From the NCBI GenBank assembly GCA_965204615.1, contig OZ242000.1:3223913-3287912 (forward strand): a stretch of DNA of 64,000 bases. Direction: 5' to 3'. This DNA comes from Acidimicrobiia bacterium. Its GTDB lineage: Bacteria; Actinomycetota; Acidimicrobiia; Spongiisociales; ZC4RG35. How positions within the stretch are numbered: the first letter of the stretch is position 1; each line of letters starts with the position of its first letter. Made by a program: the position numbers and the translations under genes. Of the stretch, positions 1-57,698 are shown in pieces. The notes under the pieces were generated by a model. That model saw only the letters and a list, made by a program, of their open reading frames with translations. It did not search any database and was not told the origin of the DNA.

Positions 1-130
1 CAGGGTTTCCCTTTGCGTGATTCAATGCGGTGGGACAAGGCTCGGTGATGCGGATACGTGCGTCGAGCCATGAAAAGTTTCTGTCACACCCTGCCGGTAT
101 TGTGTCGGGCACTGATAGCTGAAAGGATGC

Positions 131-1357
131 ATGATGCCCAATCTGACCTATGAACAAATCCGTGACGCTACTGCTGGTGAGGCGGTGGCTCTTAGATCGG
201 TGACGAGCCTGCAGCCCGCTGGGGGACGGGGTGACAAGGTGTTTCCTCCGACTTATGCGGTTGACTCTCGGGCTGAACATCGGTACGCAGTGGAAGAGCG
301 TCAGGTTGGAGACGAGGTAATGAGGACTGTGCTGTTGGATTCCGTCGCTTCGCAAGCTAACCGGGCGGAGCTCGCCTTGTTGGCCGGATGGGAGGACGGC
401 GAACTGGGTTTTCCGGTGGCGTACGTCGACTTCATGGCAGATGATGAACTCGCGGACATCGGGAAGCTCACCGTTCTGGAAGCGCCACATCGGATCGCTG
501 ATGCCATATTCCGGGACAGTCTTCTGGACGGGACTCTTTTCCGACTATCCAACATCGGAAGGGCGATCACCAATGCTCATTCCCGTGATGCGACCGCGCT
601 GTTTCGTTATTCCCCAACGGCGCTTCTTTTCGGCATGTGGGACTCGACCGGACCCAAGGGAGGCGGGGGATCGAAGTTCCAACGGGCATACGTCTCGGAG
701 ATCGTCGGTTTCAACGCAACGGTGGGCCGCAAAGTAGGTAGCCGTATCGATCCGTTGCAGATCGAACGGGACGCTGCCGTTGCTTTTCAGCACAGGGACC
801 CCGAGCAACGATGGACGTTGGACGAATCAGATGCAGCGCGAGACAAGAAAGGCAATCCCATAAAGGCCGGTGCCGATGGTCGGCCGGCGGAGATCAATCA
901 TGGCAACATCGCTCCCAGCATCAATACCTTGTCGGGCGGGGTAACCATCTCAGAAGCGACGCAGACCATCGTCATTTCTCTGGCTGCTCCCCGACGACTC
1001 CGCTTTGCTGGCCAGAGTCGAGCTGCCGAGGATGCCGCTCGTACCGCGATCGCCGCTTTGGGTGTCGCTGCGGTCGCATACCAGCACGAGATGGACTATG
1101 ACCTTCGGTCTCGCTGCTTGCTCGTCCCCCAGCATTCCCCTCGGCTAGAGGTTATTACGCGGGATGGGTCCGAACCCGAAGTTGTCGGAGTGGATCGAGC
1201 CACGTCCGCGGACTTGCTTCGCCAAGCCGCAGAGGAGGCTCAACAGGCAGGGCTGGGCTGGACAACCTCGGAGTTCCGACTGGAACCGGCGCCTAAATTG
1301 GTGCAGCTCATCAAACAGAGCCGTCGGGTGTCAGCCGACAAGCCTCTTTCGGGATAA
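131..1357 (+). CDS. Type I-U/I-G Cas7-like backbone protein (Csb1 family), tentative
   Basis: First gene of an operon that continues into cas5/6, cas3-HD, cas4-cas1 and cas2. Glycine-rich loop (STGPKGGGGSKFQ) typical of Cas7 RAMPs. Size of 408 aa fits Csb1. Assignment is by context and motif, not alignment. Confidence 0.45.
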   Translation: MMPNLTYEQIRDATAGEAVALRSVTSLQPAGGRGDKVFPPTYAVDSRAEHRYAVEERQVGDEVMRTVLLDSVASQANRAELALLAGWEDGELGFPVAYVDFMADDELADIGKLTVLEAPHRIADAIFRDSLLDGTLFRLSNIGRAITNAHSRDATALFRYSPTALLFGMWDSTGPKGGGGSKFQRAYVSEIVGFNATVGRKVGSRIDPLQIERDAAVAFQHRDPEQRWTLDESDAARDKKGNPIKAGADGRPAEINHGNIAPSINTLSGGVTISEATQTIVISLAAPRRLRFAGQSRAAEDAARTAIAALGVAAVAYQHEMDYDLRSRCLLVPQHSPRLEVITRDGSEPEVVGVDRATSADLLRQAAEEAQQAGLGWTTSEFRLEPAPKLVQLIKQSRRVSADKPLSG

Positions 1358-1360
1358 GCG

Positions 1361-6688
<5,328 letters not shown>

Positions 6689-6838
6689 ATAACCCCCCTG
6701 TGGTGCTGTCAGGGATTCTCTGTCGGTGTTAAGATGGCGCATCGACCACTCAACATCGACTAATCCATCTGTCGAAGCATTTGAGAATGCGAACGGCTGT
6801 AGGATTTCACCTCACCTTCCTATTCAGCCCCAACGACT

Positions 6839-8479
6839 ATGTCTGACGTACCAGCTCTGGTTCCAGTTCGGATGGTCAATGAGTTTGAGTACTGTCCGCG
6901 GCTTTTTTATCTTGAGTGGGTTCAATCTCGGTTCGTGGATAATCCCGATACCGTGGAGGGTCGTTATGTGCATCGGAAGGTCGATCCGGGGGGAGGTCGG
7001 ATCGCCGGACCGGAAGAGGATGACCCGGTGCGGAAGGCCCGGTCTGTGATGTTGGGGTCGGACCGTTTGGGGCTGATCGCCAAGGCGGACATAATCGAGG
7101 GAGGGAATGGCCGGGTGACTCCCGTTGAGGTCAAACGGGGCCGACCGCCCAAGCATGGTCCGGCATGGTCTCCCGAGCTCGTGCAACTGTGTGCGATCGG
7201 GCTGCTGCTCCGTGACAACGGGTACCAGTGCTCCGAGGGCGAGATTTACTTTGCGGAGACCCGCCAGCGGGTGACCATTCCTTTCGATGACGAACTGGTG
7301 GCGAAGACCCTCCGACTCGTGGAGGAGTTGCGGCATGTCGCGTCGGGACCGGACCCGCCTCCACCATTGGTCGACAGCCCGAAGTGCCCCCGTTGTTCCC
7401 TGGTGGGCATCTGCTTACCCGACGAGACCAACCTGCACACAAAGCGCTCCCTGAAGCGGCCCCGCCGGTTGGTGCCCCGCGATCCGTCCGCCCGCCCCTT
7501 GCATATCACCGAGCAGGGTGCGCGGATCGGCGTCAGGGGAGGTCGTGCCGTGGTCTCCAAGCACTACAAGGAAGTCGAATCGGTACGCATGATCGATGTC
7601 TCCCAGGTCTCGGTTTACGGCAACGTTCAACTGAGTTCCCAGTTCATGCGAGCGGCATTCATGCGGGAGATGCCGGTGTGCTGGTTCTCCTACGGTGGAT
7701 GGTTCCAAGGCATCGCCCATGGCCTGCCGTCGAAACATGTCGAACTGCGACGACGCCAAGTAGCCATAGCTGCTCAGGCGGGACTTCCGATCGCTCGACG
7801 GTTGGCCGAAGGAAAGATCCGCAATTCCCGCACCCTTCTTCGCAGAAACGCCAGACAGAATGTAGAGCGGGTCCTGGCACAACTCAACACTCTCGCCCAC
7901 CGGGCTGTATCTGCGCTATCCGTCGAAACCCTTCTCGGTCTGGAGGGAACCGCGGCCCGCCTCTACTTCTCCAAATTCGCCACCATGTTTAAGGACGACG
8001 ATCTCGGCACCTTTGACTTCCAGAGCAGGAACCGACGACCTCCAAGGGACCCGGTCAACTGCCTGCTGTCCTTCGGGTATTCGATGCTGGTCAAGGACTT
8101 CACGGCCACAGCCCTGGCGGTGGGCTTCGACCCATACCTCGGTGTCTACCATCACCCCAGATTCGGACAACCGGCCCTGGCCCTCGACCTGGCCGAGGAA
8201 TTCCGACCTCTCATAGCGGAATCGGTCGTCTTGACTCTCATCAACAACAACGAGATCAGCCGAAACAACTTCGTCATCCGGGCACAAGGGGCAGCGATGA
8301 CCAGCCAGGGACGAAGGACTTTCATCAAAGCCTACGAGCGCCGACTCGACCAAGAAGTGACACACCCCACTTACAAGTACCGGATCACCTACCGCAGAGT
8401 CTTCGAAGTCCAGGCGCGCATGCTCGGCGCCTACCTACTGGGGGAAATACCCGAATACGTACCCTTCATGACGAGGTAA
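6839..8479 (+). CDS. cas4-cas1: Cas4-Cas1 fusion protein
   Basis: N-terminal Cas4 features (EFEYCPRLFYLEW, C-terminal Cys cluster CPRCSLVGIC). C-terminal Cas1 region (GVYHHPRFGQPALALDLAEEFRPLIAE). Confidence 0.85.
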   Translation: MSDVPALVPVRMVNEFEYCPRLFYLEWVQSRFVDNPDTVEGRYVHRKVDPGGGRIAGPEEDDPVRKARSVMLGSDRLGLIAKADIIEGGNGRVTPVEVKRGRPPKHGPAWSPELVQLCAIGLLLRDNGYQCSEGEIYFAETRQRVTIPFDDELVAKTLRLVEELRHVASGPDPPPPLVDSPKCPRCSLVGICLPDETNLHTKRSLKRPRRLVPRDPSARPLHITEQGARIGVRGGRAVVSKHYKEVESVRMIDVSQVSVYGNVQLSSQFMRAAFMREMPVCWFSYGGWFQGIAHGLPSKHVELRRRQVAIAAQAGLPIARRLAEGKIRNSRTLLRRNARQNVERVLAQLNTLAHRAVSALSVETLLGLEGTAARLYFSKFATMFKDDDLGTFDFQSRNRRPPRDPVNCLLSFGYSMLVKDFTATALAVGFDPYLGVYHHPRFGQPALALDLAEEFRPLIAESVVLTLINNNEISRNNFVIRAQGAAMTSQGRRTFIKAYERRLDQEVTHPTYKYRITYRRVFEVQARMLGAYLLGEIPEYVPFMTR

Positions 8480-8659
8480 ATGATGGCCAGAGGAAGAAAG
8501 CGATACCTGGTAGCGTATGACATCAGACACCAAAAGCGTCTACGTCAAGTACACAAGACAATGAAGGCCTACGGGTGGGCCATGCAATACAGCGTTTTCA
8601 TATGCGATCTTGACTTCATAGAACTGGTCGAGATGCGCACCGACCTAGGAGGCTGCTGA
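8480..8659 (+). pseudogene. cas2: cas2 5' portion (54 native codons), truncated by IS insertion after position 8642
   Basis: MMARGRKRYLVAYDIRHQKRLRQVHKTMKAYGWAMQYSVFICDLD is a Cas2 N-terminal half. The ORF is only 59 aa. Its last codons and stop lie inside the IS terminal inverted repeat. Confidence 0.7.
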
Positions 8660-8777
8660 GTATTGGTGTTGGTGGGTGGGGTGTTGGTGGTCTGAGGCTG
8701 GGTGTTGGTGTTCTGTTGGGTTGTGTTTCTTCCCTTGGGGAGGCCGTGGAGGCGGTCGGGGGTGGGTTTCGGGGTGG

Positions 8778-9590
8778 TTAGGTGGGTTTGGCGGCCCAGC
8801 CAACAGGGGTGTGGTGTAGTCCGAGGTTGATGAGGCGTCGTAGGTTGATTGCGGCGATGCGGGTGTGGAGTTGTTGTCGGTTTGGTTCTATGCCCCGGTA
8901 TCTGAGTTTTCGGTTTCCTCGGGCGACGATGTGAGCGATGATCCGTTCCACTGATGGTCGCCAGCGGTTGTAACGGGCGACGGTTTGGGGTTGTTTCCAT
9001 TGTTGTCTGGCTCGGTCGAGCAGCCGATGGTGGGGGTGGATCTGTAGGTGCCGTCCTGTTTTGCTGGTGGTGCAACGACTTCGGTAGGGACAGTCGGTAC
9101 AGACCGCTCTGAAACGGACCTGTCCTGTCGATCCGATGGTGGCGGTGTTACCGGCCGGGCAGGTCACCTTTCGGTGTTCGGGGTCGATCACGAAGTCGTC
9201 GCGGGTGAACTGGTCGGCGCCCAACCGAGGGTTGCGTCTGGCGGGTATCGGTTTGATCGTGGTGATATGACCGGCCTCGGGCTTGGCCAAAGCGGCACGG
9301 ACGTGGCCCGATCCGTAGGCCGAATCGGCGATAACCTCGGTACCCGGTTTGTCCTTTTTTAGCAGTTCCACGCCGGTGGGACCGTCCGGTGTGTTGGCCG
9401 AGGTGATCTCACAGGCAGTGACGATCCCTGTTTCGGGCTCGGCCACGATATGGGCTTTGTAACCGTCCCGACGCTGCGAAGACGTTTTGCGTCCGTGCCG
9501 AGCCTGCGGATCGACGACCGAGATCGTCCGATCCGAAGCGACCCGGCGGGCGATCCTCCATTTTCCCGTCCGGTCGGGGTCGGGTTCCAC
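8778..9590 (-). pseudogene. IS1182/IS5-like DDE transposase, C-terminal half
   Basis: GYKAHI...DSAYGSG...RWRPSVERIIAHIVARGNRKLRYRGIEPNRQQLHTRIAAINLRRL is a typical IS1182/IS5 C-terminus. It begins exactly at the IS256 target-site duplication. Confidence 0.65.
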
Positions 9591-10982
9591 GGGCCTGTCA
9601 AATTGTCTGTGTGAGGGGTTGGGTTCATGGGTTTTATTGGGTTAGGTTCATTCGGTTTGGGAAGTGGATTTCGAGTTGGTTTAGGGCTGTTTTCCAGCCG
9701 TGGGTGCGGGTTCCGAGGTTGCCTCCTCTCTTGTTGGCGATGTTCCGAGCCGCCAGGCGCAGCAGTTTCAGAGCGGATTGGTCGGTGGGGAAATGGCCCC
9801 TGGTTTTGGTGACTTTCCGCAGCTGGTAGTGAACGCTTTCCACCAGGTTGGTGGTGTACACGACCCGGCGAAGCTCGGGAGGGAACCGCAGGAACGGGGT
9901 GAACTCTTCCCAGGCGCGTCGCCATACGCGTATCATCCCCGGGTAGCGGTTTCCCCACTGGTCGTCGAGTTCGTCCAGCGCCTGGGCGGCCGCCTCGGCG
10001 TTCACCGCCGTGTACACGACCCGAAGCCCCTTGGCGATCATTTTGCGGTCTTTCCAGCTGCACAGCCGCATAGAGGCCCGTATCAGGTGGATGACACAGG
10101 TCTGGACCAGCGCCTGAGGCCAGGTGGCCTCGATCGCGTCCGGGAGGCCTTTCAGGCCGTCACAGCACACGATCAGCACGTCCTCGAGGCCTCGGTGGCG
10201 GATCTCGGTCAGCACCGACAGCCAGTATTTGGCGCCTTCTCCGCCGTCGCCGAGCCACACCCCGAGGACGTGTTTGCGACCGTCCACATCGACACCGACC
10301 ACCACGTACGCTGGGCGGTTGATGACAGTACCGTCGGTACGGACCTTGATCACCATGGCGTCTATGTACAAGAGGGGATAGCACCGGTCAAGGGGCCGGT
10401 TCTGCCACTCGGTGAGCTCCTCGACGATCCCGTCGGTGACCTTGGACACCAACGCCGGCGACACATCCACGCCGTACATGCGAGCCAACTCCGAGCGGAT
10501 GTCACGGGTGGACAGACCCCGGGCGTACAACGCCACGATGTTGGCGTTGAAGCCCTCCAGACGCCGGGCGCCCTTGGGAACGATCCTGGGTTCGAACGTA
10601 GCGTTGCGGTCACGGGGCACGTCCAGGTCCACCGCGCCGATCTCGGTCAGGACCTGTTTCGGAGTGGTCCCGTTCCGGCTGTTGCCCGTCCCATGGCCCA
10701 TCGGGTCACCATGCTCATAGCCCAAATGATCAGTCAACTCCTCAGAAAGAGCCCGTTCCAGCACCCGCTTGGTCAACTCGGCCAACACACCGTCAGGACC
10801 CAAAAGGTCCACACCACCCGCCGCAGCGTCCGACACCACAGCCTCCACCAGCTCGTCGGACACCACACCAGCCGGCTCCGTCATCACATGTTCAGTCATA
10901 CATCATCTCCTCTCAGGCCGGGCTCTCACACCAGCCAAACAAATCAGAGAACCCAACCTCACACAGACATGTATACAGGCTC
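9591..10982 (-). mobile_element. IS256-family insertion sequence (1392 bp) nested in the IS1182-like transposase gene
   Basis: Imperfect ~33-bp inverted repeats (GGGCCTGTCAAATTGTCTGTGTGAGGGGTTGGGTTC at the left, matching the reverse complement of the right end). Flanked by an 8-bp direct repeat GGTTCCAC at 9583..9590 and 10983..10990. Confidence 0.8.
9634..10899 (-). CDS. IS256-family (mutator-type) transposase
   Basis: 421 aa with the characteristic IS256 transposase core (DHLGYEHGD...SRNGTTPKQVLTEIGAVDLDVPRDRNATFEPRIVPKG...). Confidence 0.85.
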   Translation of the reverse strand: MTEHVMTEPAGVVSDELVEAVVSDAAAGGVDLLGPDGVLAELTKRVLERALSEELTDHLGYEHGDPMGHGTGNSRNGTTPKQVLTEIGAVDLDVPRDRNATFEPRIVPKGARRLEGFNANIVALYARGLSTRDIRSELARMYGVDVSPALVSKVTDGIVEELTEWQNRPLDRCYPLLYIDAMVIKVRTDGTVINRPAYVVVGVDVDGRKHVLGVWLGDGGEGAKYWLSVLTEIRHRGLEDVLIVCCDGLKGLPDAIEATWPQALVQTCVIHLIRASMRLCSWKDRKMIAKGLRVVYTAVNAEAAAQALDELDDQWGNRYPGMIRVWRRAWEEFTPFLRFPPELRRVVYTTNLVESVHYQLRKVTKTRGHFPTDQSALKLLRLAARNIANKRGGNLGTRTHGWKTALNQLEIHFPNRMNLTQ

Positions 10983-11770
10983 GGTTCCACGTCCTGGCCG
11001 ACTACCACCCCTAACAAACCCACCGCTTCTGACTGTAGATCATCCAGATCAATGTCCCTAACCGTTTCCAGCACCGCCAGCCCGTCGGTGACCAAACGGT
11101 TGATCAACTCCGAGCGACTGTCCGGGTCCGACCAATCACAGGATGGCTTGCTCCCTTGGTAGTAATCATGGGACAACACCACCTCACGCGCTTGGGGGAT
11201 CAGACGGCGGCAGCGGCGAATCTGGGATGTGATCATGGTCACCGTGTCCTGGGTGACCACCGCATCATCCAAAACCGTGGAGTCCAACACCCGGCGGGTG
11301 CGACCCGACAACACCCCCGTCTGGTCCACCACCCTCCTAACCGCGTCGAAGATCCGCTCCGGCTGGTGACTGTTTCTTAGTCTCGCCCGCCACAAAGTCA
11401 ACACCGTGGGATGGAACCCTTCATCGGTCAACGCCAACCCCGCCGCGGCTTTCCAACGAATATCACACCGCAACCGACCGATCGCTTCCCGATCCGACAG
11501 GCCTTCCAACGCCTGTAACACCATCACCGTCGCCACCACCGACCCCGGAACCGATCGACGACCCCGCGGACCGAACAGATCCTCGAACATCCCATCCGGG
11601 AACACTGTCTTGCGGTGCTCGGCCAAAAACCGATGAACCGACCCTTCAGGAACCAGATCACCACACACCGCCATCGCGTCCAACAACTGCCGATCAAAAC
11701 CTTCACTACCCAACATCCCCCGAATTATCTCATAAACCGGCACCCGACACCAGCATTCACCAACCCCCAC
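10913..11770 (-). pseudogene. IS1182-like transposase, N-terminal half (reads through into IS256)
   Basis: FPDGMFEDLFGPRGRRSVPGSVVATVMVLQALEGLSDREAIGRLRCDIRWKAAAGL is an IS1182/IS5-family N-terminal domain. The native part ends at ...GVVVGQDVEP (10991), which is continued by VEPDPDR in the C-half. Confidence 0.65.
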
Positions 11771-11800
11771 CCACCCGAATAAATCAGCAGCCTCCTAGGT

Positions 11801-11932
11801 GCCATCATCAACCACGGTATCGATTCCATCGCCATCATCGATCTCGGTCAACCGGAAGACCGCGGCAGCAAATGCTTCTCTTTCATCGGCCAATCCAACC
11901 CCCTACCAGTCAGCGGACCCGTGATAATCTGA
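11801..11932 (+). pseudogene. cas2: Putative displaced cas2 3' end (C-terminal ~43 codons)
   Basis: An ORF immediately outside the right IS repeat encodes AIINHGIDSIAIIDLGQPEDRG..., resembling the Cas2 C-terminal DS(V/I)R(I/V)Y-LG region. 54 + 43 aa gives a normal Cas2 length. Frame continuity across the junction is not proven. Confidence 0.3.
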
Positions 11933-11959
11933 TGCGAGAGGCCAGGTCCGACCGCCAGT

Positions 11960-12103
11960 ACCAGGCACCGCTCGACAGCCTGCTAGACGTAGAAATAAAG
12001 CACTTTGACAACCGAGTGACAGCCGCTCGAAATCAGCCGCTAAGCCAACCGCTCGCAAACCTTGGGCTAAACCCCAGGTCAACGGCCGAATGACAAGCGA
12101 GCC
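11960..12103 (+). promoter_or_regulatory. Putative CRISPR leader (promoter-proximal region upstream of repeat 1)
   Basis: Lies directly upstream of the best-conserved repeats. It is a locally AT-richer stretch with TTGACA at about 12000. No -10 element could be confirmed. Confidence 0.3.
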
Positions 12104-13109
12104 CCTCCGAGGGCCGATCTCGGCCCTCCTCCATTGCGGCATGCTCCTGGGCATGCTCCTGGGCAGCACTGGCCACCCGAAGATGGCTGCCTCCGAGGGC
12201 CGATCTCGGCCCTCCTCCATTGCGGCCGGCGGCGGCTAGGAAGTCGTTTGCCCATACTTGGCCTCCGAGGGCCGATCTCGGCCCTCCTCCATTGCGGCAT
12301 TCCTTGTTTGAGTATTTCGTAAGCCTCTTCTGCTGCCTCCGAGGGCCGATCTCGGCCCTCCTCCATTGCGGCGAGGCGCTCGCCGATGGGAACACCTGGA
12401 CCCGAGAACCTCCGAGGGCCGATCTCGGCCCTCCTCCATTGCGGCTACCGCGACAATGTGCTCGTCGGGGATTTCCAGTACTACCTCCGAGGGCCGATCT
12501 CGGTCCTCCTCCATTGCGGCTACGCCCGGTACATCGAGGGTCGTCCGATGGCCGCCCTTCCGAGGGCCGATCTCGGCCCTTCTCCATTGCGGCTGGGCCA
12601 ATGCCCGGAAATGGCAAGACTTCCCCGAGCTCCGAGGGCCGATCTCGGTCCTCCTCCATTGCGGCCATGACATCGAGTTCGACCCAGGTGGCGTCCCGGC
12701 CCGCCCTCCGAGGGCCGATCTCGGTCCTCCTCCATTGCGGCTGGTACCTGACGACCAACCCGGGCCATCTGACCGTCCCTCCGAGGGCCGATCTCGGCCC
12801 TCCTCCATTGCGGCGCATAGCACCAGCCCGAAGCCAGACAGCTAACCCAACCTCCGAGGGCCGATCTCGGTCCTCCTCCATTGCGGCGTGTACAGAATCT
12901 CGTCGACCTGCGTCTGGATGGCCAGCCTCCGAGGGCCGATTTCGGCCCTCCTTCATTGCGGCCGGACCTGGAGCAGTCGCCGGTAGAAGTTGTCCGGCCC
13001 TTCGGGGGTCGATTTCGGCCCTCCTTCATTGCGGACCGACCTCTTCGCCTTGATGCCCGTCCAGGTCGTCACCCTTCGGGGGTCGATTTCGGCCCTCCTT
13101 CATTGCGGC
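12104..13109 (+). CRISPR. CRISPR array: 14 repeats of 37 bp (CCTCCGAGGGCCGATCTCGGCCCTCCTCCATTGCGGC) and 13 spacers (35-39 bp, except spacer 1 at 49 bp)
   Basis: Repeats start at 12104, 12190, 12262, 12336, 12409, 12484, 12557, 12629, 12705, 12778, 12851, 12926, 12999 and 13073. R1-R5 are identical; later repeats accumulate substitutions, and R12-R14 are degenerate. Internal palindrome GAGGGCCGA-TC-TCGGCCCTC. The 3' handle-like ATTGCGGC supports plus-strand orientation. Confidence 0.9.
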
Positions 13110-13229
13110 CCAACTTGTGCAGGCGTGGACCTGCCTGCTGAGACTATGTCTGGCATGGAATTGTAGAGAGGGGTTCTGACCTGGGTAAAGGGCGGATATG
13201 AAGTGTTAGGGGAGGGAAACCCACGGGGG

Positions 13230-13680
13230 GAGCGGGCCTCAGGCGGTTCGCGACTTGGGTGTGGCTTCGCCTTCAACTTCTCGGCGGGGCTAGTTGCGGG
13301 CCGGCTTTGGTTAGGGAACCAGGCAGACCTTCCCAGCACTTGGCGGTCGGCCAGGTAGGCGATGGCTGCGGGGGCCTGGTCGAAGGAGAAGACCCAGTCC
13401 ACGTGGGGGTGGATCAGGCCCTGCTCGCACCACTCTTTGAGTTGGACGAGATTGGCGCGGTTCTCTCTGGGGTAGCGTTCCACGAAGTCTCCCCAGAACA
13501 CTCCCACCGCCGAGGCCGATTTCAGGAGGGCCAGGTTGAGCGGCAGACGGGGGATCTTCCCGGCCGCAAAGTCGACCACCAGCAGGCATCCGTTCCACCG
13601 GAGTGAGCGGAAGCAGGTTTCAGTGGCGCAACCGCCCACCGGATCGTAGACCACGTCGGCGCTCTTTCCGTCGGTGAAAC
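13230..13680 (-). pseudogene. Truncated copy A of the qor 3' end (~380 bp, with a 1-bp deletion near the stop) plus conserved downstream element
   Basis: 13301..13680 is about 90% identical to 31591..31970 of the intact qor; the encoded VYDPVGGxATETCFRSLRWNG...ADRQVLGR matches. 13203..13300 carries the shared downstream element (GGGAGGGAA...CGCGACTTGGxTGTGGCTTTCGCC...CGGCGGGGCTAGTT...). Confidence 0.75.
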
Positions 13681-13700
13681 TGCGGACAGCCTCCTAGCGT

Positions 13701-15281: not shown

Positions 15282-15666
15282 CCTCCGGGAGGGAGCCCGA
15301 AGGGGAAGGGAGCAGCGGGCGTTTTTCGCGACTTGGCTGTGGTTTTCGCCGTGGATTTCTCGGCGGGGCTAGTTGCTGGCCGGATTGGCTAGGGAACGAG
15401 ACAGACCCTTCCCAGCACCTGGCGGTCGGCCAGGTAGGCCATGGCAGCGGGGGCCTGGTCGAAGGAGAAGACCCGGTCCACGTGGGGTGGATCGAGCCCT
15501 GTTCGCACCACTCTTTGAGCTGGACGAGATTGGCGCGGTTTTCTCTGGGTAGCCTTCTACGAAGTCTCCCCAGAACGCTCCCACCGCCGAGGCCGATTTC
15601 AGGAGGGCCAGGTTGAGCGGCAGGCGGGGGATCTTGCCGGCCGCAAAGTCCACCACCAGCAGGCGT
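15282..15666 (-). pseudogene. Truncated copy B of the qor 3' end (~270 bp) plus conserved downstream element
   Basis: 15400..15666 aligns to the last ~270 bp of qor (LLVVDFAAGKIPRLPLNLALLKSASAVGAFWGDFVE...). 15282..15400 is the shared downstream element. Confidence 0.7.
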
Positions 15667-15689
15667 CCACAGCAGGAGCGTGACCCCAC

Positions 15690-20799: not shown

Positions 20800-20935
20800 G
20801 GGGGAGGGAAGCCCGCCGAGGGAGGGGACCGGCGGGCGATTCTCGCGACTTGGCTGTGGCTTTCGCCGTCAACTTCCCGGCGGGGCTACTTACCCGCCTG
20901 CTTTGGGTAGGGAACCAGACTGGCCCATTCCTTGT
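20800..20935 (-). repeat. Copy C of the qor-downstream element with only ~15 bp of the qor 3' end
   Basis: GGGGAGGGAAGCCCGCCGAGGGAGGGGACCGGCGGGCGATTCTCGCGACTTGGCTGTGGCTTTCGCCGTCAACTTCCCGGCGGGGCTACTT...TTTGGGTAGGGAACCAGAC aligns to the downstream element of copies A and B, including the qor stop-codon region. Confidence 0.65.
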
Positions 20936-31590: not shown

Positions 31591-32565
31591 CTAGGGAACC
31601 AGGCAGACCCTTCCCAGCACCTGGCGGTCTGCCAGGTAGGCCATGGCTGCGGGGGCCTGGTCGAAGGAGAAGACCCGGTCCACGTGGGGGTGGATGAGGC
31701 CCTGTTCGCACCACTCTTTGAGCTGGACTAGATTGGCGCGGTTTTCCCTGGGGTAGCGTTCCACGAAGTCTCCCCAGAACACTCCCACCGCCGAGGCCGA
31801 CTTGAGGAGGGCCAGGTTGAGCGGCAGGCGGGGGATCTTGCCGGCCGCAAAGCCCACCACCAGCAGGCGTCCGTTCCAACGGAGTGAGCGGAAGCACGTT
31901 TCAGTGGCGGAACCGCCCACGGGATCGTAGACCACGTCGGCGCCCTTTCCGTCGGTGAAACTGCGGATCGCCTCCCGTAGGTCATCGCGGTCGTAGCGGA
32001 TGGCGACATCCGCCCCGCGTTGCAGAACGAACTCCGCCTTCCTCTCCGAGGACACCGCCGCCGCCACCCGGCATCCCAGTAGCTTGGCAATTTCGACCGC
32101 GGCGATTCCCACTCCACCGGCCGCGCCCAGCACCACCACCGTCTCTCCTTCGGACACCGCGGCCCGGTCGACCAGGGCATGGTAGGAGGTTCCGTAGGCG
32201 GTCATGAAGGACGCCGCCTCGATGTCGGTCAGGTTGTCGGGCGCCGGTGCGGTCCGGGAGACGTCGGTCACCACCGTTTCGGCGAAACAACCCACCCCGG
32301 CGAACATCACCACCCGGTCTCCCACCGACACCGAGTCCACCCCGGGTCCCACCTCGGTGACCGTGCCGGCTCCCTCGAAGCCGGGAATGAAGGGGAGGTC
32401 CGGCTTCACCTGGTAGTGCCCCGACACCACCAGGATGTCGGCGAAGTTGACTCCCGACCCTCCCAGGGCGATCTTGACCTGCCCGGGTCCGGGCGTCGGT
32501 TCGGGGACCTCGGTGGCCACCAGACCGGCCGGTCCCTTCCAATCTGTGCACAGAACGGCTTTCAC
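31591..32565 (-). CDS. qor: NADPH:quinone oxidoreductase / zinc-type alcohol dehydrogenase-like (MDR family), intact copy
   Basis: 324 aa. GGSGVNFADILVVSGHY...LGAAGGVGIAAVEIAKLLG (Rossmann GxGxxG). Its 3' third is the sequence repeated at 13.3, 15.4 and 20.9 kb. Confidence 0.8.
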   Translation of the reverse strand: MKAVLCTDWKGPAGLVATEVPEPTPGPGQVKIALGGSGVNFADILVVSGHYQVKPDLPFIPGFEGAGTVTEVGPGVDSVSVGDRVVMFAGVGCFAETVVTDVSRTAPAPDNLTDIEAASFMTAYGTSYHALVDRAAVSEGETVVVLGAAGGVGIAAVEIAKLLGCRVAAAVSSERKAEFVLQRGADVAIRYDRDDLREAIRSFTDGKGADVVYDPVGGSATETCFRSLRWNGRLLVVGFAAGKIPRLPLNLALLKSASAVGVFWGDFVERYPRENRANLVQLKEWCEQGLIHPHVDRVFSFDQAPAAMAYLADRQVLGRVCLVP

Positions 32566-44601: not shown

Positions 44602-46338
44602 CTACCGGATGACCGCCACCACCGCGCCGGTCGCCACCGAATCGCCGGCTTCGATGCGGAGTTCCACCACATTGCCATTCTTGCCGGCCGCAACCGCGTT
44701 CTCCATCTTCATGGCCTCCAGCACGCAGATGGTGTCGTCGGCGTCGACCCGGTCGCCCACTTTGACGTTGACCTTGACGATGGTGCCCTGCATGGGAGCG
44801 GTGACCGCCCCGTCGGAGGCGACCGCCGGTCCCTTGGCGGGCTTGGGAGGGCGGCGCCGCACCTTGGCCGCCCGGTCCTCCTGGCCGACGTCGGGCTCCC
44901 AGTAGGAGACCACGAACCGGCGACCGCTTATCTCCACCGTCATGTCCTGGCGGACCACCCCTTCCTCTTCCGGCAGGGACTCCGCGACATCCGGGGCCGT
45001 GGGGGACAGATTGATCTCGGTCTCCAGCCAGTCGGTGTGGTGGCGGGCGGAGATGAAATCGGGATGGTCGAGCACCGCCCTGTGTACCGGGATGGTGGTG
45101 GGCACGCCGGTGATCTCGTACTCGTCCAGGGCCCGCCTGGCGCGGCTGATGGCCTGGGTGCGGGTGGGCGCCCATACCACCAGCTTGGCCAGCAGGTTGT
45201 CGTAATAGCGGGGGACGGTGACGCCCGCCCTGACCCAACCATCCACCCGCACTCCCGGCCCGGCGGGTTCGCGGTAGCTGACGATCCGCCCCGGGGTGGG
45301 CAGGTAGTCGCGATAGGGGTCCTCGGCGTTGATCCGCATCTCGATGGCGTGGCCGTCCGCTCGCAGGCCTATCGCCGAAGTGGGGCTTCCGGCCGCGATT
45401 CGCAGTTGCTCCCGCACCAGGTCCACGCCGGTGACCATCTCGGTGACGGTGTGTTCCACCTGCAGCCGCGTGTTCATCTCCAGAAAGTAGAAGGATCCCT
45501 CCGAGTCCACCAGGAACTCCACGGTTCCGGCGCTGCGATACTCACAGGCCCGGGCGATCCTCAGAGCCGCCTCACCCAGCTCGGTGCTCTGGGAGAGATT
45601 CAAGATCGCCGACGGGGCCTCCTCGATGAGCTTCTGGTGCCTGCGTTGAACCGAGCAGTCCCGCTCACCCAGATAGACGAAGTTGTGATGGTTGTCCACC
45701 AGGATCTGAGCCTCGATGTGGTGGACATCGGTCAGCATCTTCTCGACGTACACCTCGGGACTGCCGAAGAAGGCGTCGGCCTCCCGCTGGGCGGACGCCA
45801 ATGACTCCTGTATCTGCGAGGGGTGGTTCACAGTGCGCATGCCGCGTCCCCCGCCGGCCCTGGACGCCTTGATCAACACCGGGTAGCCCAGCCGGTCGGC
45901 CGCCGCCCTGATCTCGGTGGGGTCTTCCAGGGGAGACCCGGTTCCGGGGACCACCGGCACTCCCGCCTCGGTGGCTATCCGCCGGGACGCCACCTTGTCG
46001 CCCATGGCGGCGATGGCCGCGGGAGGTGGACCGACCCAGATCAGGCCGGCATCGGTGACCGCCTGGGCGAACTCGGCGTTCTCGGACAGGAAGCCGTACC
46101 CCGGATGGATGGATTCGGCGCCCGTCTCGGCGGCCACCCCCAGGATCCGTTCCATGTTCAGGTATGACTTTCCGGCCGGGGCGGGTCCGATGTTCCAGGC
46201 CTGGTCGGCCAACTGGGCGTGATAGGCGTCCCGGTCCGGCTCGGAGTAGACGGCGATGGTTCTCAGGCCGGCCTCGCGGGCGGTGCGAATGATCCTGACC
46301 GCAATCTCGCCGCGGTTGGCGACCAGAACCGACTTCAC
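44602..46338 (-). CDS. Biotin-dependent acyl-CoA carboxylase alpha subunit (biotin carboxylase + BCCP)
   Basis: MKSVLVANRGEIAVRIIRTAREAG... is the biotin carboxylase region. The C-terminal biotinyl domain has the EAMKM motif. Confidence 0.85.
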   Translation of the reverse strand: MKSVLVANRGEIAVRIIRTAREAGLRTIAVYSEPDRDAYHAQLADQAWNIGPAPAGKSYLNMERILGVAAETGAESIHPGYGFLSENAEFAQAVTDAGLIWVGPPPAAIAAMGDKVASRRIATEAGVPVVPGTGSPLEDPTEIRAAADRLGYPVLIKASRAGGGRGMRTVNHPSQIQESLASAQREADAFFGSPEVYVEKMLTDVHHIEAQILVDNHHNFVYLGERDCSVQRRHQKLIEEAPSAILNLSQSTELGEAALRIARACEYRSAGTVEFLVDSEGSFYFLEMNTRLQVEHTVTEMVTGVDLVREQLRIAAGSPTSAIGLRADGHAIEMRINAEDPYRDYLPTPGRIVSYREPAGPGVRVDGWVRAGVTVPRYYDNLLAKLVVWAPTRTQAISRARRALDEYEITGVPTTIPVHRAVLDHPDFISARHHTDWLETEINLSPTAPDVAESLPEEEGVVRQDMTVEISGRRFVVSYWEPDVGQEDRAAKVRRRPPKPAKGPAVASDGAVTAPMQGTIVKVNVKVGDRVDADDTICVLEAMKMENAVAAGKNGNVVELRIEAGDSVATGAVVAVIR

Positions 46339-56097: not shown

Positions 56098-57698
56098 TGG
56101 CCGCGCGACTCCCCCTCTACACCGGCGCAATCACACGGCTGGCCGGCTGGGATCGGGCCGTCCGGCGGTGGGAGGAGCGAGGCCTGGTGGACAGGCTCTG
56201 GGCATCGGACCCGTCCGTCTGGGGAACGTCGGCGCCCGGCGCGGACCAGTGGCTCGGATGGCTCGATCTTCCCCACACCATGGGTGATCGGTTGGGAGAC
56301 ATGGTCCGTCTGGCCGAGGATGCGGCTTCGGAGGGTGTGGCGGATGTGGTGCTGCTGGGCATGGGAGGTTCCAGCCTGGCTCCCGAGGTGTTCGGCGAGG
56401 TGTTCGGCTCCGCGCCGGGCCGTCCCCGCCTCACGGTGCTCGACTCCACCCACCCCGAGGCGGTGACGTCGCTGCGTTCCCGCATCGAGCCGTCCCGGAC
56501 CCTCTTCGTGGTCTCCTCCAAGTCGGGCACGACGGTGGAGACCCTGTCGTTCTACAGGTTCTTCTGGGACCTGTGCTCCGGGGAGGGCGCCCGGTTCGCC
56601 GCCATCACCGACCAGGGCACCCCGCTGGACCGCCTGGGACGAGAGCGCGGTTTCCGGGCGGTGTTCAACGCACCGGCCGATGTGGGAGGACGGTTCTCGG
56701 CACTCAGCGCCTTCGGCCTGGTTCCCGCCGCGCTGATCGGGGTGGACCTGCCATCCCTGCTGGAAAGAGCCCGGGGGTCAGCGGAGAGGGGAAGGCTGGG
56801 CACAGCCCGGAACCCGGCGGTGGGCCTGGGGTTGGCCATGGGCGCCGCCGCAGCCGCGGGAATGGACAAGTTGACGCTGCACACCACCGAGAGCCTGGCG
56901 GCCTTTCCCCCCTGGATGGAGCAACTGGTGGCCGAGAGCCTCGGCAAGAACGGGGTGGGGATAGTCCCGGTGGCCGGAGAACCGGTCCTCGAAGGCGGTC
57001 TCTACGGCGACGACCGTCTCTTCTTGGTGTGGGAGTCCGACGGAGAGCCTCCCGTCGGTCTCCCGGTGGGTCTTGGTGGAGCGCGGATCGAGGTGGAAGA
57101 CCGACTGGACCTGGGTGCGGAGATGATCCGTGCGGAGTTGGCGGTGGCCGCCGCCGCCGAGGTGCTGGGAGTGAACCCCTTCGATCAGCCCGACGTGGAA
57201 GAGGCCAAGCGCCTGGCGACGGAGGCGATGGGTCGGGACGCCTCCACGGCCGGCACCGACCTGGCGCCTGCGCAGTCAACCGGAACGAGGGCGTCGATCC
57301 GACAGATGGTGGAGGAACTGGGATCCGGTGATTACCTGGGCATCCATGCCTATCTTCCCCCGGGAGCGGGGATCGAGCGGAAGATCGGCGAGATCCGGCG
57401 GCGGGTCACCGAGATCAGCGGGGCGGCCACCACCTTCGGCTACGGTCCCCGGTATCTCCATTCCACCGGGCAGGTCCACAAGGGAGGTCCCCCGGGCGGG
57501 TCCTTTCTGCAGATAGTGGACGATCCCTCATCGGAGGTGCAGGTTCCCGAGACCGAATTCGGCTTCTCCAGGCTGATCGCCGCCCAGGCAGAGGGCGACC
57601 ACCTGGCTCTCCGGGGAGCGGATCGCAGAGTGCTGCGGGTGACATTGGGGTCGGACCGCACCGGTGGCCTCGAGGCGATCGCGGAGAGTCTCGGCTGA
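56097..57698 (+). CDS. pgi: Glucose-6-phosphate isomerase
   Basis: PGI signatures (VLLGMGGSSLAPE; FVVSSKSGTTVETL; DVGGRFSALSAFGL). Start is the ATG overlapping the upstream TGA. The 725-aa track ORF is an out-of-frame-overlap artefact. Confidence 0.7.
   Translation: MAARLPLYTGAITRLAGWDRAVRRWEERGLVDRLWASDPSVWGTSAPGADQWLGWLDLPHTMGDRLGDMVRLAEDAASEGVADVVLLGMGGSSLAPEVFGEVFGSAPGRPRLTVLDSTHPEAVTSLRSRIEPSRTLFVVSSKSGTTVETLSFYRFFWDLCSGEGARFAAITDQGTPLDRLGRERGFRAVFNAPADVGGRFSALSAFGLVPAALIGVDLPSLLERARGSAERGRLGTARNPAVGLGLAMGAAAAAGMDKLTLHTTESLAAFPPWMEQLVAESLGKNGVGIVPVAGEPVLEGGLYGDDRLFLVWESDGEPPVGLPVGLGGARIEVEDRLDLGAEMIRAELAVAAAAEVLGVNPFDQPDVEEAKRLATEAMGRDASTAGTDLAPAQSTGTRASIRQMVEELGSGDYLGIHAYLPPGAGIERKIGEIRRRVTEISGAATTFGYGPRYLHSTGQVHKGGPPGGSFLQIVDDPSSEVQVPETEFGFSRLIAAQAEGDHLALRGADRRVLRVTLGSDRTGGLEAIAESLG

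What the first reader, a model, noticed from the sequence alone, without database searches (positions are those of the whole stretch)
12104..13109. CRISPR array with leader-proximal conservation, degenerate distal repeats and an atypical 49-bp first spacer
Repeats R1-R5 are identical and mutations accumulate toward R12-R14; for example GATTTCGGCCCTCCTTCATTGCGGA in the last units. This places the leader at the 12.0 kb side, the same orientation as the cas operon. Spacer 1, the most recently acquired, is 49 bp versus 35-39 bp for the others. It contains an internal direct duplication (ATGCTCCTGGGC twice), which is unusual for a ruler-based I-U adaptation machinery. One hypothesis is that the duplication reflects aberrant integration, perhaps linked to the disrupted cas2; a replication slip after acquisition is an alternative. 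The array ends only ~120 bp from the first qor-fragment repeat.
Basis: seen in the sequence. Interest (0 to 1): 0.5.

Follow-up and report, generated by a model that had tools for sequence, protein, structure and literature searches.

The report
CRISPR array with one duplicated spacer
This is an ordinary type I-G CRISPR array whose newest spacer is 12 bases too long because a short stretch was copied twice, most likely a DNA copying slip and not a fault of the spacer-capturing enzymes.

Summary
There are 14 repeats of 37 nt (12104-13109) and 13 spacers of 35-39 nt, except spacer 1 (12141-12189), which is 49 nt. The array follows a type I-G cas operon on the + strand. Its 171-nt leader is conserved in ten related loci. 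The repeat hairpin is supported by covariation. cas2 is split by an IS1182-family element that itself carries an IS256; a 97%-identical relative (L018) shows the empty site.

Spacer 1 is a 37-nt spacer plus a perfect 12-nt tandem duplication. The periodic run (12138-12165, 2.3 copies) starts in the last three bases of repeat 1, so the ancestral sequence had GGCA arms 12 nt apart. That is the signature of microhomology-mediated slippage. Removing one copy gives a normal length. None of 204 spacers from related arrays exceeds 46 nt, and related arrays capture tandem-repeat targets at normal length.

No protospacer, self-target or strain sharing spacer 1 was found. A slip during integration repair, and an assembly artefact, remain possible. 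Interest is low.

The parts
131..1357 (+). csb1/cas7g (408 aa)
   Evidence: Pfam Cas_GSU0053 at 3e-51 and TIGR02570. 98% aa identity to L018.
1361..3025 (+). csb2 (Cas5-Cas6 fusion, 554 aa)
   Evidence: TIGR02165 at 8e-91, full length.
2997..5750 (+). cas3g helicase-nuclease (917 aa)
   Evidence: TIGR02621 at 1e-224, covering model positions 1-854 of 854.
5747..6688 (+). Type I-G 'Cas3-extension family' protein (313 aa)
   Evidence: NF049934 at 7e-81.
6839..8479 (+). cas4-cas1 fusion (546 aa), intact
   Evidence: NF049935 at 4e-230, covering model positions 1-546 of 546.
8483..8649 (+). cas2, 5' fragment (about 56 codons)
   Evidence: The ORF at 8480-8659 reads MMARGRKRYLVAYDIR...EMRTDLG and then runs into the IS. 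It is colinear with intact cas2 of L001, L012 and L018.
8650..11793 (-). IS1182-family element inserted in cas2. It has terminal inverted repeats and is flanked by a direct CCTAGG (8644-8649 and 11794-11799).
   Evidence: A perfect 17-nt inverted repeat lies at 8643-8659 and 11784-11800. The transposase is in two halves, 8778-9590 and 10913-11770, matching NF033551. L018 gives the empty site. An intact homologous IS is in L007.
9591..10982 (-). IS256-family element nested inside the IS1182 element, with an 8-bp target duplication GGTTCCAC (9583-9590 and 10983-10990)
   Evidence: Transposase at 9634-10899, Transposase_mut at 5e-114 and NF033543. Boundaries and target duplication.
11800..11932 (+). 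cas2, 3' fragment, with stop codon at 11930-11932
   Evidence: Joining 8483-8649 to 11800-11932 gives a 99-aa Cas2 that is 97% identical to P0133.
11933..12103 (+). Leader (171 nt) with a conserved TTGACA box at 12004-12009
   Evidence: Alignment A1 of 10 loci: 85% mean column identity from the cas2 stop to R1.
12104..13109 (+). CRISPR array: 14 repeats of 37 nt and 13 spacers
   Evidence: The 8-bp hairpin with a 4-nt loop folds at -17.2 kcal/mol. Five of its 8 pairs show compensatory changes across related arrays.
12141..12189 (+). Spacer 1, 49 nt: an inferred 37-nt spacer plus a 12-nt tandem duplication (copies at 12141-12152 and 12153-12164)
12138..12165 (.). Perfectly periodic run (period 12, 28 nt). 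It shows GGCA microhomology arms, the left one made of the last 3 nt of R1 plus spacer base 1.
   Evidence: This is the only candidate site with arms of at least 4 nt at the R1|S1 junction in the de-duplicated sequence.
12926..13109 (+). Degenerate distal repeats R12-R14 with spacers 12 and 13
   Evidence: R12 has T16 and T28. R13 and R14 share T4, G7, T11, T16 and T28. R13 also has A37.

Best explanation
The region is a genuine, leader-first type I-G (formerly I-U) CRISPR array, presumably transcribed from the + strand. Each 37-nt repeat forms an 8-bp hairpin. New spacers of about 36 nt were measured out by Cas4/Cas1-Cas2 and inserted next to the leader.

Spacer 1 was captured as a normal 37-nt spacer (ATGCTCCTGGGCAGCACTGGCCACCCGAAGATGGCTG). 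A later slipped-strand event during DNA synthesis duplicated 12 nt. The slip occurred between two GGCA tetranucleotides 12 nt apart: one formed by the last three repeat bases plus spacer base 1, the other at spacer bases 10-13. This microhomology-mediated tandem duplication gave the 49-nt spacer.

The insertion of an IS1182-family element (itself hit by IS256) into cas2 is an independent event. It stopped, or at least crippled, further acquisition by this locus, and it did not cause the long spacer.

Shown: the array anatomy, orientation, cas content, IS insertion with empty site, the exact tandem structure with microhomology, and the length range in relatives.

Inferred: the slippage mechanism, the order of events, and the consequence for the crRNA. 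The crRNA now carries a 12-nt insertion in the PAM-proximal half of the guide, so it probably no longer recognises its original target.
For: - Array, repeats and spacer lengths.
- Type I-G genes on the + strand directly upstream.
- The order cas2 stop, about 170-nt leader, R1 is conserved in 10 loci.
- Hairpin covariation (5 of 8 pairs change on both sides, 97.7% of cells paired). All window variants keep the stem through G.U pairs, which exist only in the + strand RNA.
- Perfect 2.3-copy period-12 run at 12138-12165, beginning inside R1. Deleting one copy gives 37 nt, inside the array's own 35-39 range.
- 204 spacers from 9 related non-redundant arrays span 34-46 nt with a mode of 36; none reaches 47.
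- Related array L012, with an identical repeat, holds 36-37-nt spacers that contain 8-nt tandem repeats. Repeat-bearing targets are therefore captured at normal length.
- In the studied I-U system the predominant spacer length is 36 bp, and deleting cas2 gives a sharp drop in acquisition: PMC6547450.
- Tandem duplications in microbes, bacteria included, are predominantly flanked by microhomology of 3 bp or more: bioRxiv 10.64898/2026.02.28.708716.
- The cas genes are uninterrupted full-length matches, so local consensus quality is good.
Against: - No relative carrying spacer 1 was found, so the 37-nt ancestral state is inferred and not observed. L018 ends inside R1. No spacer is shared with any fetched array.
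- No protospacer was found in phages, plasmids, IMG/VR, the window or the fetched loci. The target's own sequence at this site is therefore unknown.
- Position is suspicious for a random slip. It lies in the newest of 13 spacers, exactly at the repeat-spacer junction. Only 4 of 7,320 candidate microhomology sites in the window lie in S1, and only two perfect young short duplications exist in 64 kb. This is a post-hoc argument, but it leaves room for an origin coupled to integration.
- The sequence probably comes from a metagenome-assembled genome. Relatives carry long-read-style contig names. A consensus or minor-variant artefact cannot be excluded.
Confidence: 0.65

Rival explanations
1. Integration-coupled slip. 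The duplication arose while the cell repaired the integration intermediate. After the spacer is joined, the new leader-proximal repeat is a single-stranded, hairpin-prone gap. A repair polymerase fills it from the leader into the 5' end of the spacer. Strand displacement followed by re-pairing of the nascent ...GGC(A) end with the repeat-end GGC(A) would loop out 12 nt and fix a duplication exactly at the R1|S1 junction. Spacer 1 would then have been 49 nt from the first replication after acquisition.
For: - The duplication lies in the newest spacer (1 of 13) and its register includes the R1|S1 junction.
- Only one of 7,320 candidate sites in the window lies at that junction, and only two young perfect duplications exist in 64 kb.
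- The microhomology arm uses repeat bases.
Against: - I found no report of such events in the papers I searched or read.
- None of 204 spacers in related arrays shows an over-length spacer with an internal duplication.
- The statistical argument is post hoc, from a scan that selects oddities.
- By established knowledge, not tested here, prespacers have recessed 5' ends, so the nick is probably not at spacer base 1.
Confidence: 0.12
2. Assembly or consensus artefact, or a minority allele. The true dominant sequence has a 37-nt spacer, and the extra 12 nt comes from a mis-polished or minority read set in a metagenome assembly.
For: - The window's Cas4/Cas1 is identical to a protein recorded on a 3,332,550-bp contig from NCBI/ENA.
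- Sister contigs from the same kind of project have names giving 3x-10x coverage.
- The leader-repeat junction has one more C than the 97%-identical L018. A homopolymer difference is typical of long-read consensus errors.
Against: - A clean, perfect 12-nt tandem duplication is not a usual error mode. This rests on general knowledge of sequencing errors.
- All five upstream cas genes are full length without frameshifts.
- 12 of the 13 other repeats are also preceded by C, so the junction C may be real.
Confidence: 0.1
3. True over-length capture. The adaptation complex integrated a 49-nt prespacer. Either the ruler failed, for example with a defective Cas2, or the target itself carries the ATGCTCCTGGGC tandem repeat.
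For: - The length control in this Cas4/Cas1 clade is not absolute. The L007 array has 19 older spacers of 38-46 nt next to 8 newer ones of 35-38 nt, and the first spacer of L009 is 46 nt.
- cas2 is broken in this locus.
- A 95%-identical Cas4/Cas1 (P0001) is recorded on a contig of the same length. A second module might therefore act in trans.
Against: - It needs two coincidences: an over-length capture, and a perfect tandem repeat whose unit equals the excess length and whose periodicity extends 3 nt into the repeat.
- Tandem-repeat targets are captured at normal length in L012.
- Loss of cas2 gives a sharp drop in acquisition in I-U; long spacers were not reported (PMC6547450).
- The truncated Cas2 keeps only about 56 of 99 residues.
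- 49-50 nt exceeds every one of the 204 related spacers.
Confidence: 0.06

Closest known systems
Type I-G (formerly I-U) CRISPR-Cas of Geobacter sulfurreducens, with a Cas4/Cas1 fusion and spacers of about 36 bp
   Same: It has csb1/cas7g, csb2 (Cas5-Cas6), cas3g, a cas4-cas1 fusion and cas2, all matching the subtype-specific NCBIfam models. The array lies downstream of cas2 behind a leader. The repeat is 36-37 nt and ends in ATTG.... Spacers centre on 36-37 nt, as reported for that system (PMC6547450).
   Different: - The gene order is csb1-csb2-cas3-313 aa-cas4/1-cas2.
- No large (about 745-aa) protein, such as lies between cas3 and csb1 in L004/L005/L013 and which I take to be cas8u2, was found among the ORFs scanned in 1-12000.
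- A 313-aa 'Cas3-extension family' protein is present.
- cas2 is interrupted by nested IS elements.
- Neither the PAM nor the crRNA processing site is known for this locus.
Microhomology-mediated tandem duplication, also called slipped-strand mispairing
   Same: There are two perfect tandem copies of a short unit (12 nt). The inferred single-copy ancestor is flanked by 4-nt direct repeats (GGCA). This matches the working definition of arms of at least 4 bp and units of 10-500 bp in bioRxiv 10.64898/2026.02.28.708716.
   Different: The single-copy allele has not been observed. One microhomology arm straddles a CRISPR repeat-spacer junction, in the newest spacer.
Engineered type I-E and I-Fv Cascade complexes with lengthened spacers
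   Same: A +12-nt spacer equals two 6-nt Cas7 steps. Such crRNAs assemble into larger Cascade complexes in E. coli, S. thermophilus and Shewanella (PMC5009729, PMC6859484, PMC4937334).
   Different: In those experiments the added bases matched the target. Here the added 12 nt repeat the guide's own first 12 nt, so they would mismatch the original protospacer. Extended I-E guides are sensitive to mismatches in the extension (PMC5009729). Nothing is known for I-G.

Membership tests
CRISPR array | At least three near-identical direct repeats of 23-55 nt, regularly interspaced by unique spacers of similar length | tested here: met
   14 repeats of 37 nt and 13 unique spacers; 12 of them are 35-39 nt. 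No spacer is duplicated or shared with another array.
CRISPR array | Adjacent cas genes and a leader between the last cas gene and the first repeat | tested here: met
   A type I-G operon lies at 131-8479, followed by a split cas2. The 171-nt leader is conserved in 10 loci.
CRISPR array | Repeat structure conserved by covariation in related arrays | tested here: met
   In the 8-bp stem, 5 pairs change on both sides and 97.7% of cells are paired; 0 of 500 shuffles reach the observed covariation score.
CRISPR array | Spacers match mobile genetic elements (protospacers with a PAM) | tested here: inconclusive
   No credible match in 50,697 phage records or 72,556 plasmids. None in IMG/VR for S1 (two halves) or S2-S5. 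None in the window or the fetched loci.
CRISPR array | Transcription and processing into crRNAs | not testable with these tools
   There is only indirect support: a conserved TTGACA box in the leader and G.U-compatible variants on the + strand. The promoter scan found no full sigma-70 match on the + strand.
Type I-G (I-U) CRISPR-Cas | Signature genes cas3g, csb1/cas7g, csb2 (cas5-6) and the cas4-cas1 fusion | tested here: met
   TIGR02621 at 1e-224, TIGR02570, TIGR02165 at 8e-91 and NF049935 at 4e-230. All score above their curated cut-offs.
Type I-G (I-U) CRISPR-Cas | Intact cas2 | tested here: not met
   cas2 is split at codon ~56 by a 3.1-kb nested IS. The intact allele is seen in L018.
Type I-G (I-U) CRISPR-Cas | Large subunit cas8u2/csx17 | tested here: inconclusive
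   No counterpart of the roughly 745-aa protein that lies between cas3 and csb1 in L004/L005/L013 (taken to be cas8u2) was found among the ORFs scanned in 1-12000. A 313-aa NF049934 protein sits between cas3 and cas4/1. Loci L007-L012 and L018 share this compact order with unrelated genes upstream.
Microhomology-mediated tandem duplication | Perfect head-to-tail copies whose inferred single-copy ancestor is flanked by short direct repeats | tested here: met
   Period 12, 2.3 copies, 100% identity, at 12138-12165. This implies 4-nt GGCA arms.
Microhomology-mediated tandem duplication | Single-copy allele present in relatives or in the population | not testable with these tools
   The closest relative, L018, ends inside R1. 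The source genome could not be retrieved. No other locus shares the spacer.
Aberrant over-length spacer acquisition | The whole spacer is a contiguous copy of the target | not testable with these tools
   No protospacer was found. The internal structure argues against it: the excess length equals the duplicated unit.

The most novel reading that the evidence does not exclude
The 12-nt duplication is a scar of spacer integration itself. Repair synthesis fills the single-stranded, hairpin-forming repeat gap, runs into the newly joined spacer, slips on repeat-end microhomology, and creates an over-length, probably dead spacer. Such products would be visible only at the leader end, before they are lost. 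If this is general, post-integration gap repair would be an unrecognised source of defective spacers.
Probability: 0.1. Interest if true: 0.45.

Novelty: new member of a known kind. Interest (0 to 1): 0.15.

Why it matters
It matters little on its own. The locus is one more type I-G CRISPR-Cas system from an uncultured bacterium, with its adaptation module knocked out by insertion sequences. The long spacer is explained by a common mutation type.

The case is still useful as a caution. Over-length spacers in assembled arrays should be checked for internal tandem duplications before they are read as evidence about the acquisition ruler.

The only wider point would be the integration-coupled reading. 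If junction-adjacent duplications turned out to be enriched in newest spacers across many arrays, that would point to error-prone gap repair after integration, a step of CRISPR adaptation that is still poorly characterised.

Tried and rejected
- **Source and sister strains.** An exact look-up of the window's Cas4/Cas1 and of its 95% paralogue P0001 found nothing on record. The genome-contig scan with the repeat gave only L001, a Gemmatimonadetes MAG whose contig ends at R1. The metagenome scan gave only L002, which holds other spacers.
- **Related loci.** Twelve look-ups gave 16 related loci. None shares a spacer with the window. The closest, L018 (97% identical), stops inside R1.
- **Protospacers.** blastn of the whole array against phages and plasmids gave only sub-threshold hits, mostly overlapping repeats. 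Six IMG/VR scans for S1-S5 gave 0 hits.
- **Self-targeting.** No match at up to 9 mismatches in the window. The only hit is a 15-nt chance match of S8 at 45981-45995.
- **Rfam.** Only weak CRISPR-DR20 hits, 19-20 bits against a gathering score of 42, all on the + strand.
- **Promoter scan.** No + strand sigma-70 consensus in the leader.
- **A first fuzzy-regex array parser** timed out and was replaced by other parsers.
- **Rejected: S1 as two spacers fused by loss of a repeat.** The two 12-mers are identical and tandem, and the remainder is a single 37-mer.
- **Rejected: a 36-nt repeat for this array.** Twelve of the 13 spacer-to-repeat junctions have C before CTCCG. Spacer lengths match the family mode only with a 37-nt repeat.
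- **Rejected: the 49-nt spacer as part of a general long-spacer regime** like the one in L007. The other 12 spacers here are 35-39 nt.

Full report
**1. What is there**

Reading 11700-13700, the repeat finder and an explicit parse show 14 copies of the 37-mer CCTCCGAGGGCCGATCTCGGCCCTCCTCCATTGCGGC.
- They are separated by 13 unique spacers of 35, 37, 36, 38, 36, 35, 39, 36, 36, 38, 36 and 37 nt, plus the first spacer of 49 nt (12141-12189).
- No other copy of the repeat exists in the 64-kb window on either strand.
- R1-R5 and R10 equal the consensus. R6, R8, R9 and R11 carry one shared change (C21T). R7 has two changes and R12 two. R13 has six and R14 five.
The quoted string ending in GCGGA is R13 only.

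**2. Context and orientation**

Upstream on the + strand lies a complete set of type I-G (formerly I-U) genes, each above the curated cut-off of its subtype-specific model:
- csb1/cas7g at 131-1357
- csb2 at 1361-3025
- cas3g at 2997-5750
- a 313-aa 'Cas3-extension family' protein at 5747-6688
- the cas4-cas1 fusion at 6839-8479

cas2 starts at 8483 but is cut after about 56 codons.
- A perfect 17-nt inverted repeat (8643-8659 and 11784-11800) bounds an IS1182-family element.
- Its transposase, on the - strand, is itself split (8778-9590 and 10913-11770) by an IS256-family element at 9591-10982. That element has an 8-bp target duplication, GGTTCCAC.
- Joining 8483-8649 to 11800-11932 restores a 99-aa Cas2 that is 97% identical to P0133.
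- The contig that encodes P0133 (L018) is 97% identical to window 1-8649 and continues directly into window 11794-12133.

The 171 nt between the cas2 stop (11930-11932) and R1 align with the same interval of nine other loci at 85% mean identity. The alignment includes an invariant TTGACA box. This fixes the leader at the 12.0-kb side.

The repeat folds into an 8-bp stem with a 4-nt loop.
- Across repeat variants of related arrays, five of the eight pairs change on both sides and 97.7% of cells stay paired.
- The window's own variants keep the stem only through G.U pairs, which exist in the + strand RNA and not in its complement.
- Leader position, cas orientation, distal degeneracy and G.U variants therefore all agree.

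**3. Repeat length**

In most related arrays the base before CTCCG varies, so those repeats are 36 nt. In the window it is C at 12 of 13 junctions. In L002 it is C at 5 of 5.
- With a 37-nt repeat, the window's spacers (35-39 nt) match the family mode.
- With 36 nt they would be 1 nt long.

**4. Spacer 1**

Its sequence is ATGCTCCTGGGC, ATGCTCCTGGGC, then AGCACTGGCCACCCGAAGATGGCTG.
- Tandem Repeats Finder reports period 12, 2.3 copies and 100% identity at 12138-12165.
- The perfect periodicity begins in the last three bases (GGC) of R1 and ends one base (A) past the second copy.
- The single-copy ancestor ...GCGGC|ATGCTCCTGGGCAGC... therefore had GGCA at both ends of a 12-nt unit. That is the substrate of slipped-strand or microhomology-mediated tandem duplication.
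- A recent survey finds that most microbial tandem duplications, including those in bacteria, carry microhomology arms of at least 3 bp (bioRxiv 10.64898/2026.02.28.708716).
- Removing one copy gives 37 nt, inside the array's own range.

**5. How unusual is 49 nt**

I fetched arrays next to Cas4/Cas1 proteins 85-92% identical to the window's.
- After removing redundant and error-ridden contigs, 204 spacers remained.
- In the 36-nt convention they measure 34-46 nt with a mode of 36. None reaches 47, and S1 would be 50.
- S1 is also the only spacer with a tandem unit longer than 8 nt.
- Two spacers of L012, whose repeat is identical to the window's, contain 8-nt tandem repeats yet are 36 and 37 nt long. 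Targets with tandem repeats are thus measured normally.
- The clade's ruler is not rigid. L007 has 19 older spacers of 38-46 nt followed by 8 newer ones of 35-38 nt, and the first spacer of L009 is 46 nt.
- Even so, nothing there resembles an excess that equals an internal duplicate.

**6.

'Aberrant integration linked to the disrupted cas2' is not supported, for three reasons.
- A failing ruler should give a longer contiguous copy of the target. It should not give a perfect duplication whose unit equals the excess and whose periodicity runs into the repeat.
- In the G. sulfurreducens I-U system, deleting cas2 caused a sharp drop in acquisition, and spacer length (36 bp) did not even depend on Cas4 catalysis (PMC6547450).
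- The truncated Cas2 retains barely half the protein.

The alternative, a replication slip, fits every feature.

The order of the IS insertion and the duplication cannot be determined.

A 95%-identical Cas4/Cas1 (P0001) is recorded on a contig of exactly the same length (3,332,550 bp) as the window's own protein P0126.
- The genome may therefore hold a second I-G locus that could act in trans.
- Neither locus could be fetched.

**7. What remains open**

The position is striking: the newest spacer, with a register that includes the repeat-spacer junction.
- In the de-duplicated window there are 7,320 candidate sites with arms of at least 4 nt. Of these, 126 lie in the array, four in S1 and one at the junction, which is the one used.
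- Only two perfect young short duplications exist in the 64 kb. The other is at 56384-56408.
- This is a post-hoc argument on a finding selected for oddity.
- It does leave room for a slip during gap-filling of the integration intermediate, which I give about 0.1.

An assembly artefact or minority allele also cannot be excluded, because the source looks like a metagenome-assembled genome. However, the cas genes show no frameshifts, and a clean 12-nt duplication is not a typical consensus error.

**8. Targets**

None were found.
- The whole array searched by blastn against 50,697 phage and 72,556 plasmid records gave only sub-threshold hits, mostly overlapping repeats.
- Exact scans of IMG/VR with two halves of S1 and with pieces of S2-S5 gave nothing.
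- No spacer matches the rest of the window at up to 9 mismatches or the fetched loci. The only hit is a 15-nt chance match of S8.
- There is therefore no evidence of self-targeting within what could be searched. The rest of the genome was not available.

**9. Likely consequence (inferred)**

Lengthened guides are tolerated by type I-E and I-Fv Cascades, which add Cas7 subunits per 6 nt (PMC5009729, PMC6859484, PMC4937334).
- A +12 crRNA could therefore still be packaged.
- The inserted 12 nt sit in the PAM-proximal half of the guide and would mismatch the original protospacer.
- Spacer 1 is probably no longer effective against its original target.

**10. Verdict**

- This is a real and ordinary type I-G CRISPR array, with its adaptation module inactivated by nested IS elements.
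- The 49-nt spacer is best explained as a normal 37-nt spacer that suffered a 12-bp microhomology-mediated tandem duplication.
- Interest is low. Novelty is limited to a new member of a known kind.

Noticed in passing
window 8643-11800; L018 10150-10180: Nested insertion sequences lie in cas2: an IS256-family element (9591-10982, target duplication GGTTCCAC) inside an IS1182-family element (8650-11793, flanked by CCTAGG). The 97%-identical relative L018 has the empty site. No other copy of either IS occurs in the window.
   Followed up: yes
L018 8358-9997 (cas4/1): The closest relative has an intact cas2, but its cas4-cas1 differs from the window's by a single 1-nt gap and is called only as a 138-aa C-terminal fragment, so it appears frameshifted. 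It is 93.6% identical in DNA here, against about 97% elsewhere. The effector genes are 97-98% identical in protein and intact. Two close relatives therefore carry different lesions in the adaptation module. The frameshift could also be an assembly error.
   Followed up: partly
window 131-8479 versus L004/L005/L013 3000-11650: Cas4/Cas1 (86-89% identity), the leader and the repeat are shared between loci whose effector modules are entirely different. One order is csb1-csb2-cas3-313 aa. The other is cas3-745 aa-csb1-466 aa. Cas3 is only 27% identical and csb1 is not detectably similar by BLASTP. This suggests exchange of the adaptation-plus-array module between effector cassettes. It also raises the question of how two very different Csb2 proteins handle the same repeat.
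   Followed up: partly
window 12104-13109 (repeat variants): Seven of the nine distinct repeat substitutions are C-to-T on the + strand and none is G-to-A. C21T recurs in R6, R8, R9 and R11 but not in R7 or R10, which simple copying from the first repeat cannot produce. Both stem C-to-T changes hit the inner C of a GGCC. R13 and R14 share five substitutions and R12 shares two of them. Possible causes are recurrent deamination at a methylated site, transcription-strand bias, or recombination between arrays.
   Followed up: no
L007 12116-14221; L009 12115-12447: One related array has two spacer-length regimes: the newest 8 spacers are 35-38 nt and the older 19 are 38-46 nt, with identical repeats throughout. 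Another array has a 46-nt first spacer followed by spacers of 35-36 nt. The length setting of this Cas4/Cas1 clade seems able to shift.
   Followed up: partly
not in the window (proteins P0001 and P0126): A Cas4/Cas1 95% identical to the window's is recorded on a contig of the same length (3,332,550 bp) as the window's own protein. The genome probably holds a second type I-G locus. The DNA could not be fetched.
   Followed up: partly
window 13210-13694, 15287-15668, 20801-20931, 31591-31975: There are dispersed copies (80-94% identical) of the 3' part of a zinc-binding dehydrogenase gene. The intact copy is at 31591-32565 on the - strand. The first fragment starts 100 bp after the array. The ORF at 13100-13654 (-) hits ADH_zinc_N_2.
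   Followed up: partly
window 12098-12108 versus L018 10464-10474: The leader-repeat junction reads GCGAGCCCCTCCG in the window, but has one C fewer in L018 and in eight of the nine other aligned loci; L009 has two fewer. This goes with the 37-nt repeat (not 36 nt) of this array, although a homopolymer miscall is possible.
   Followed up: partly
window 56384-56408: This is the only other perfect young tandem duplication in the window: CGAGGTGTTCGG, twice.
   Followed up: no
L008 15105-17099: A related array is interrupted by a roughly 2-kb insertion carrying a DDE transposase between two repeats. L009 and L012 also have transposase genes directly after their arrays. IS hits in and around this CRISPR family appear frequent.
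   Followed up: no
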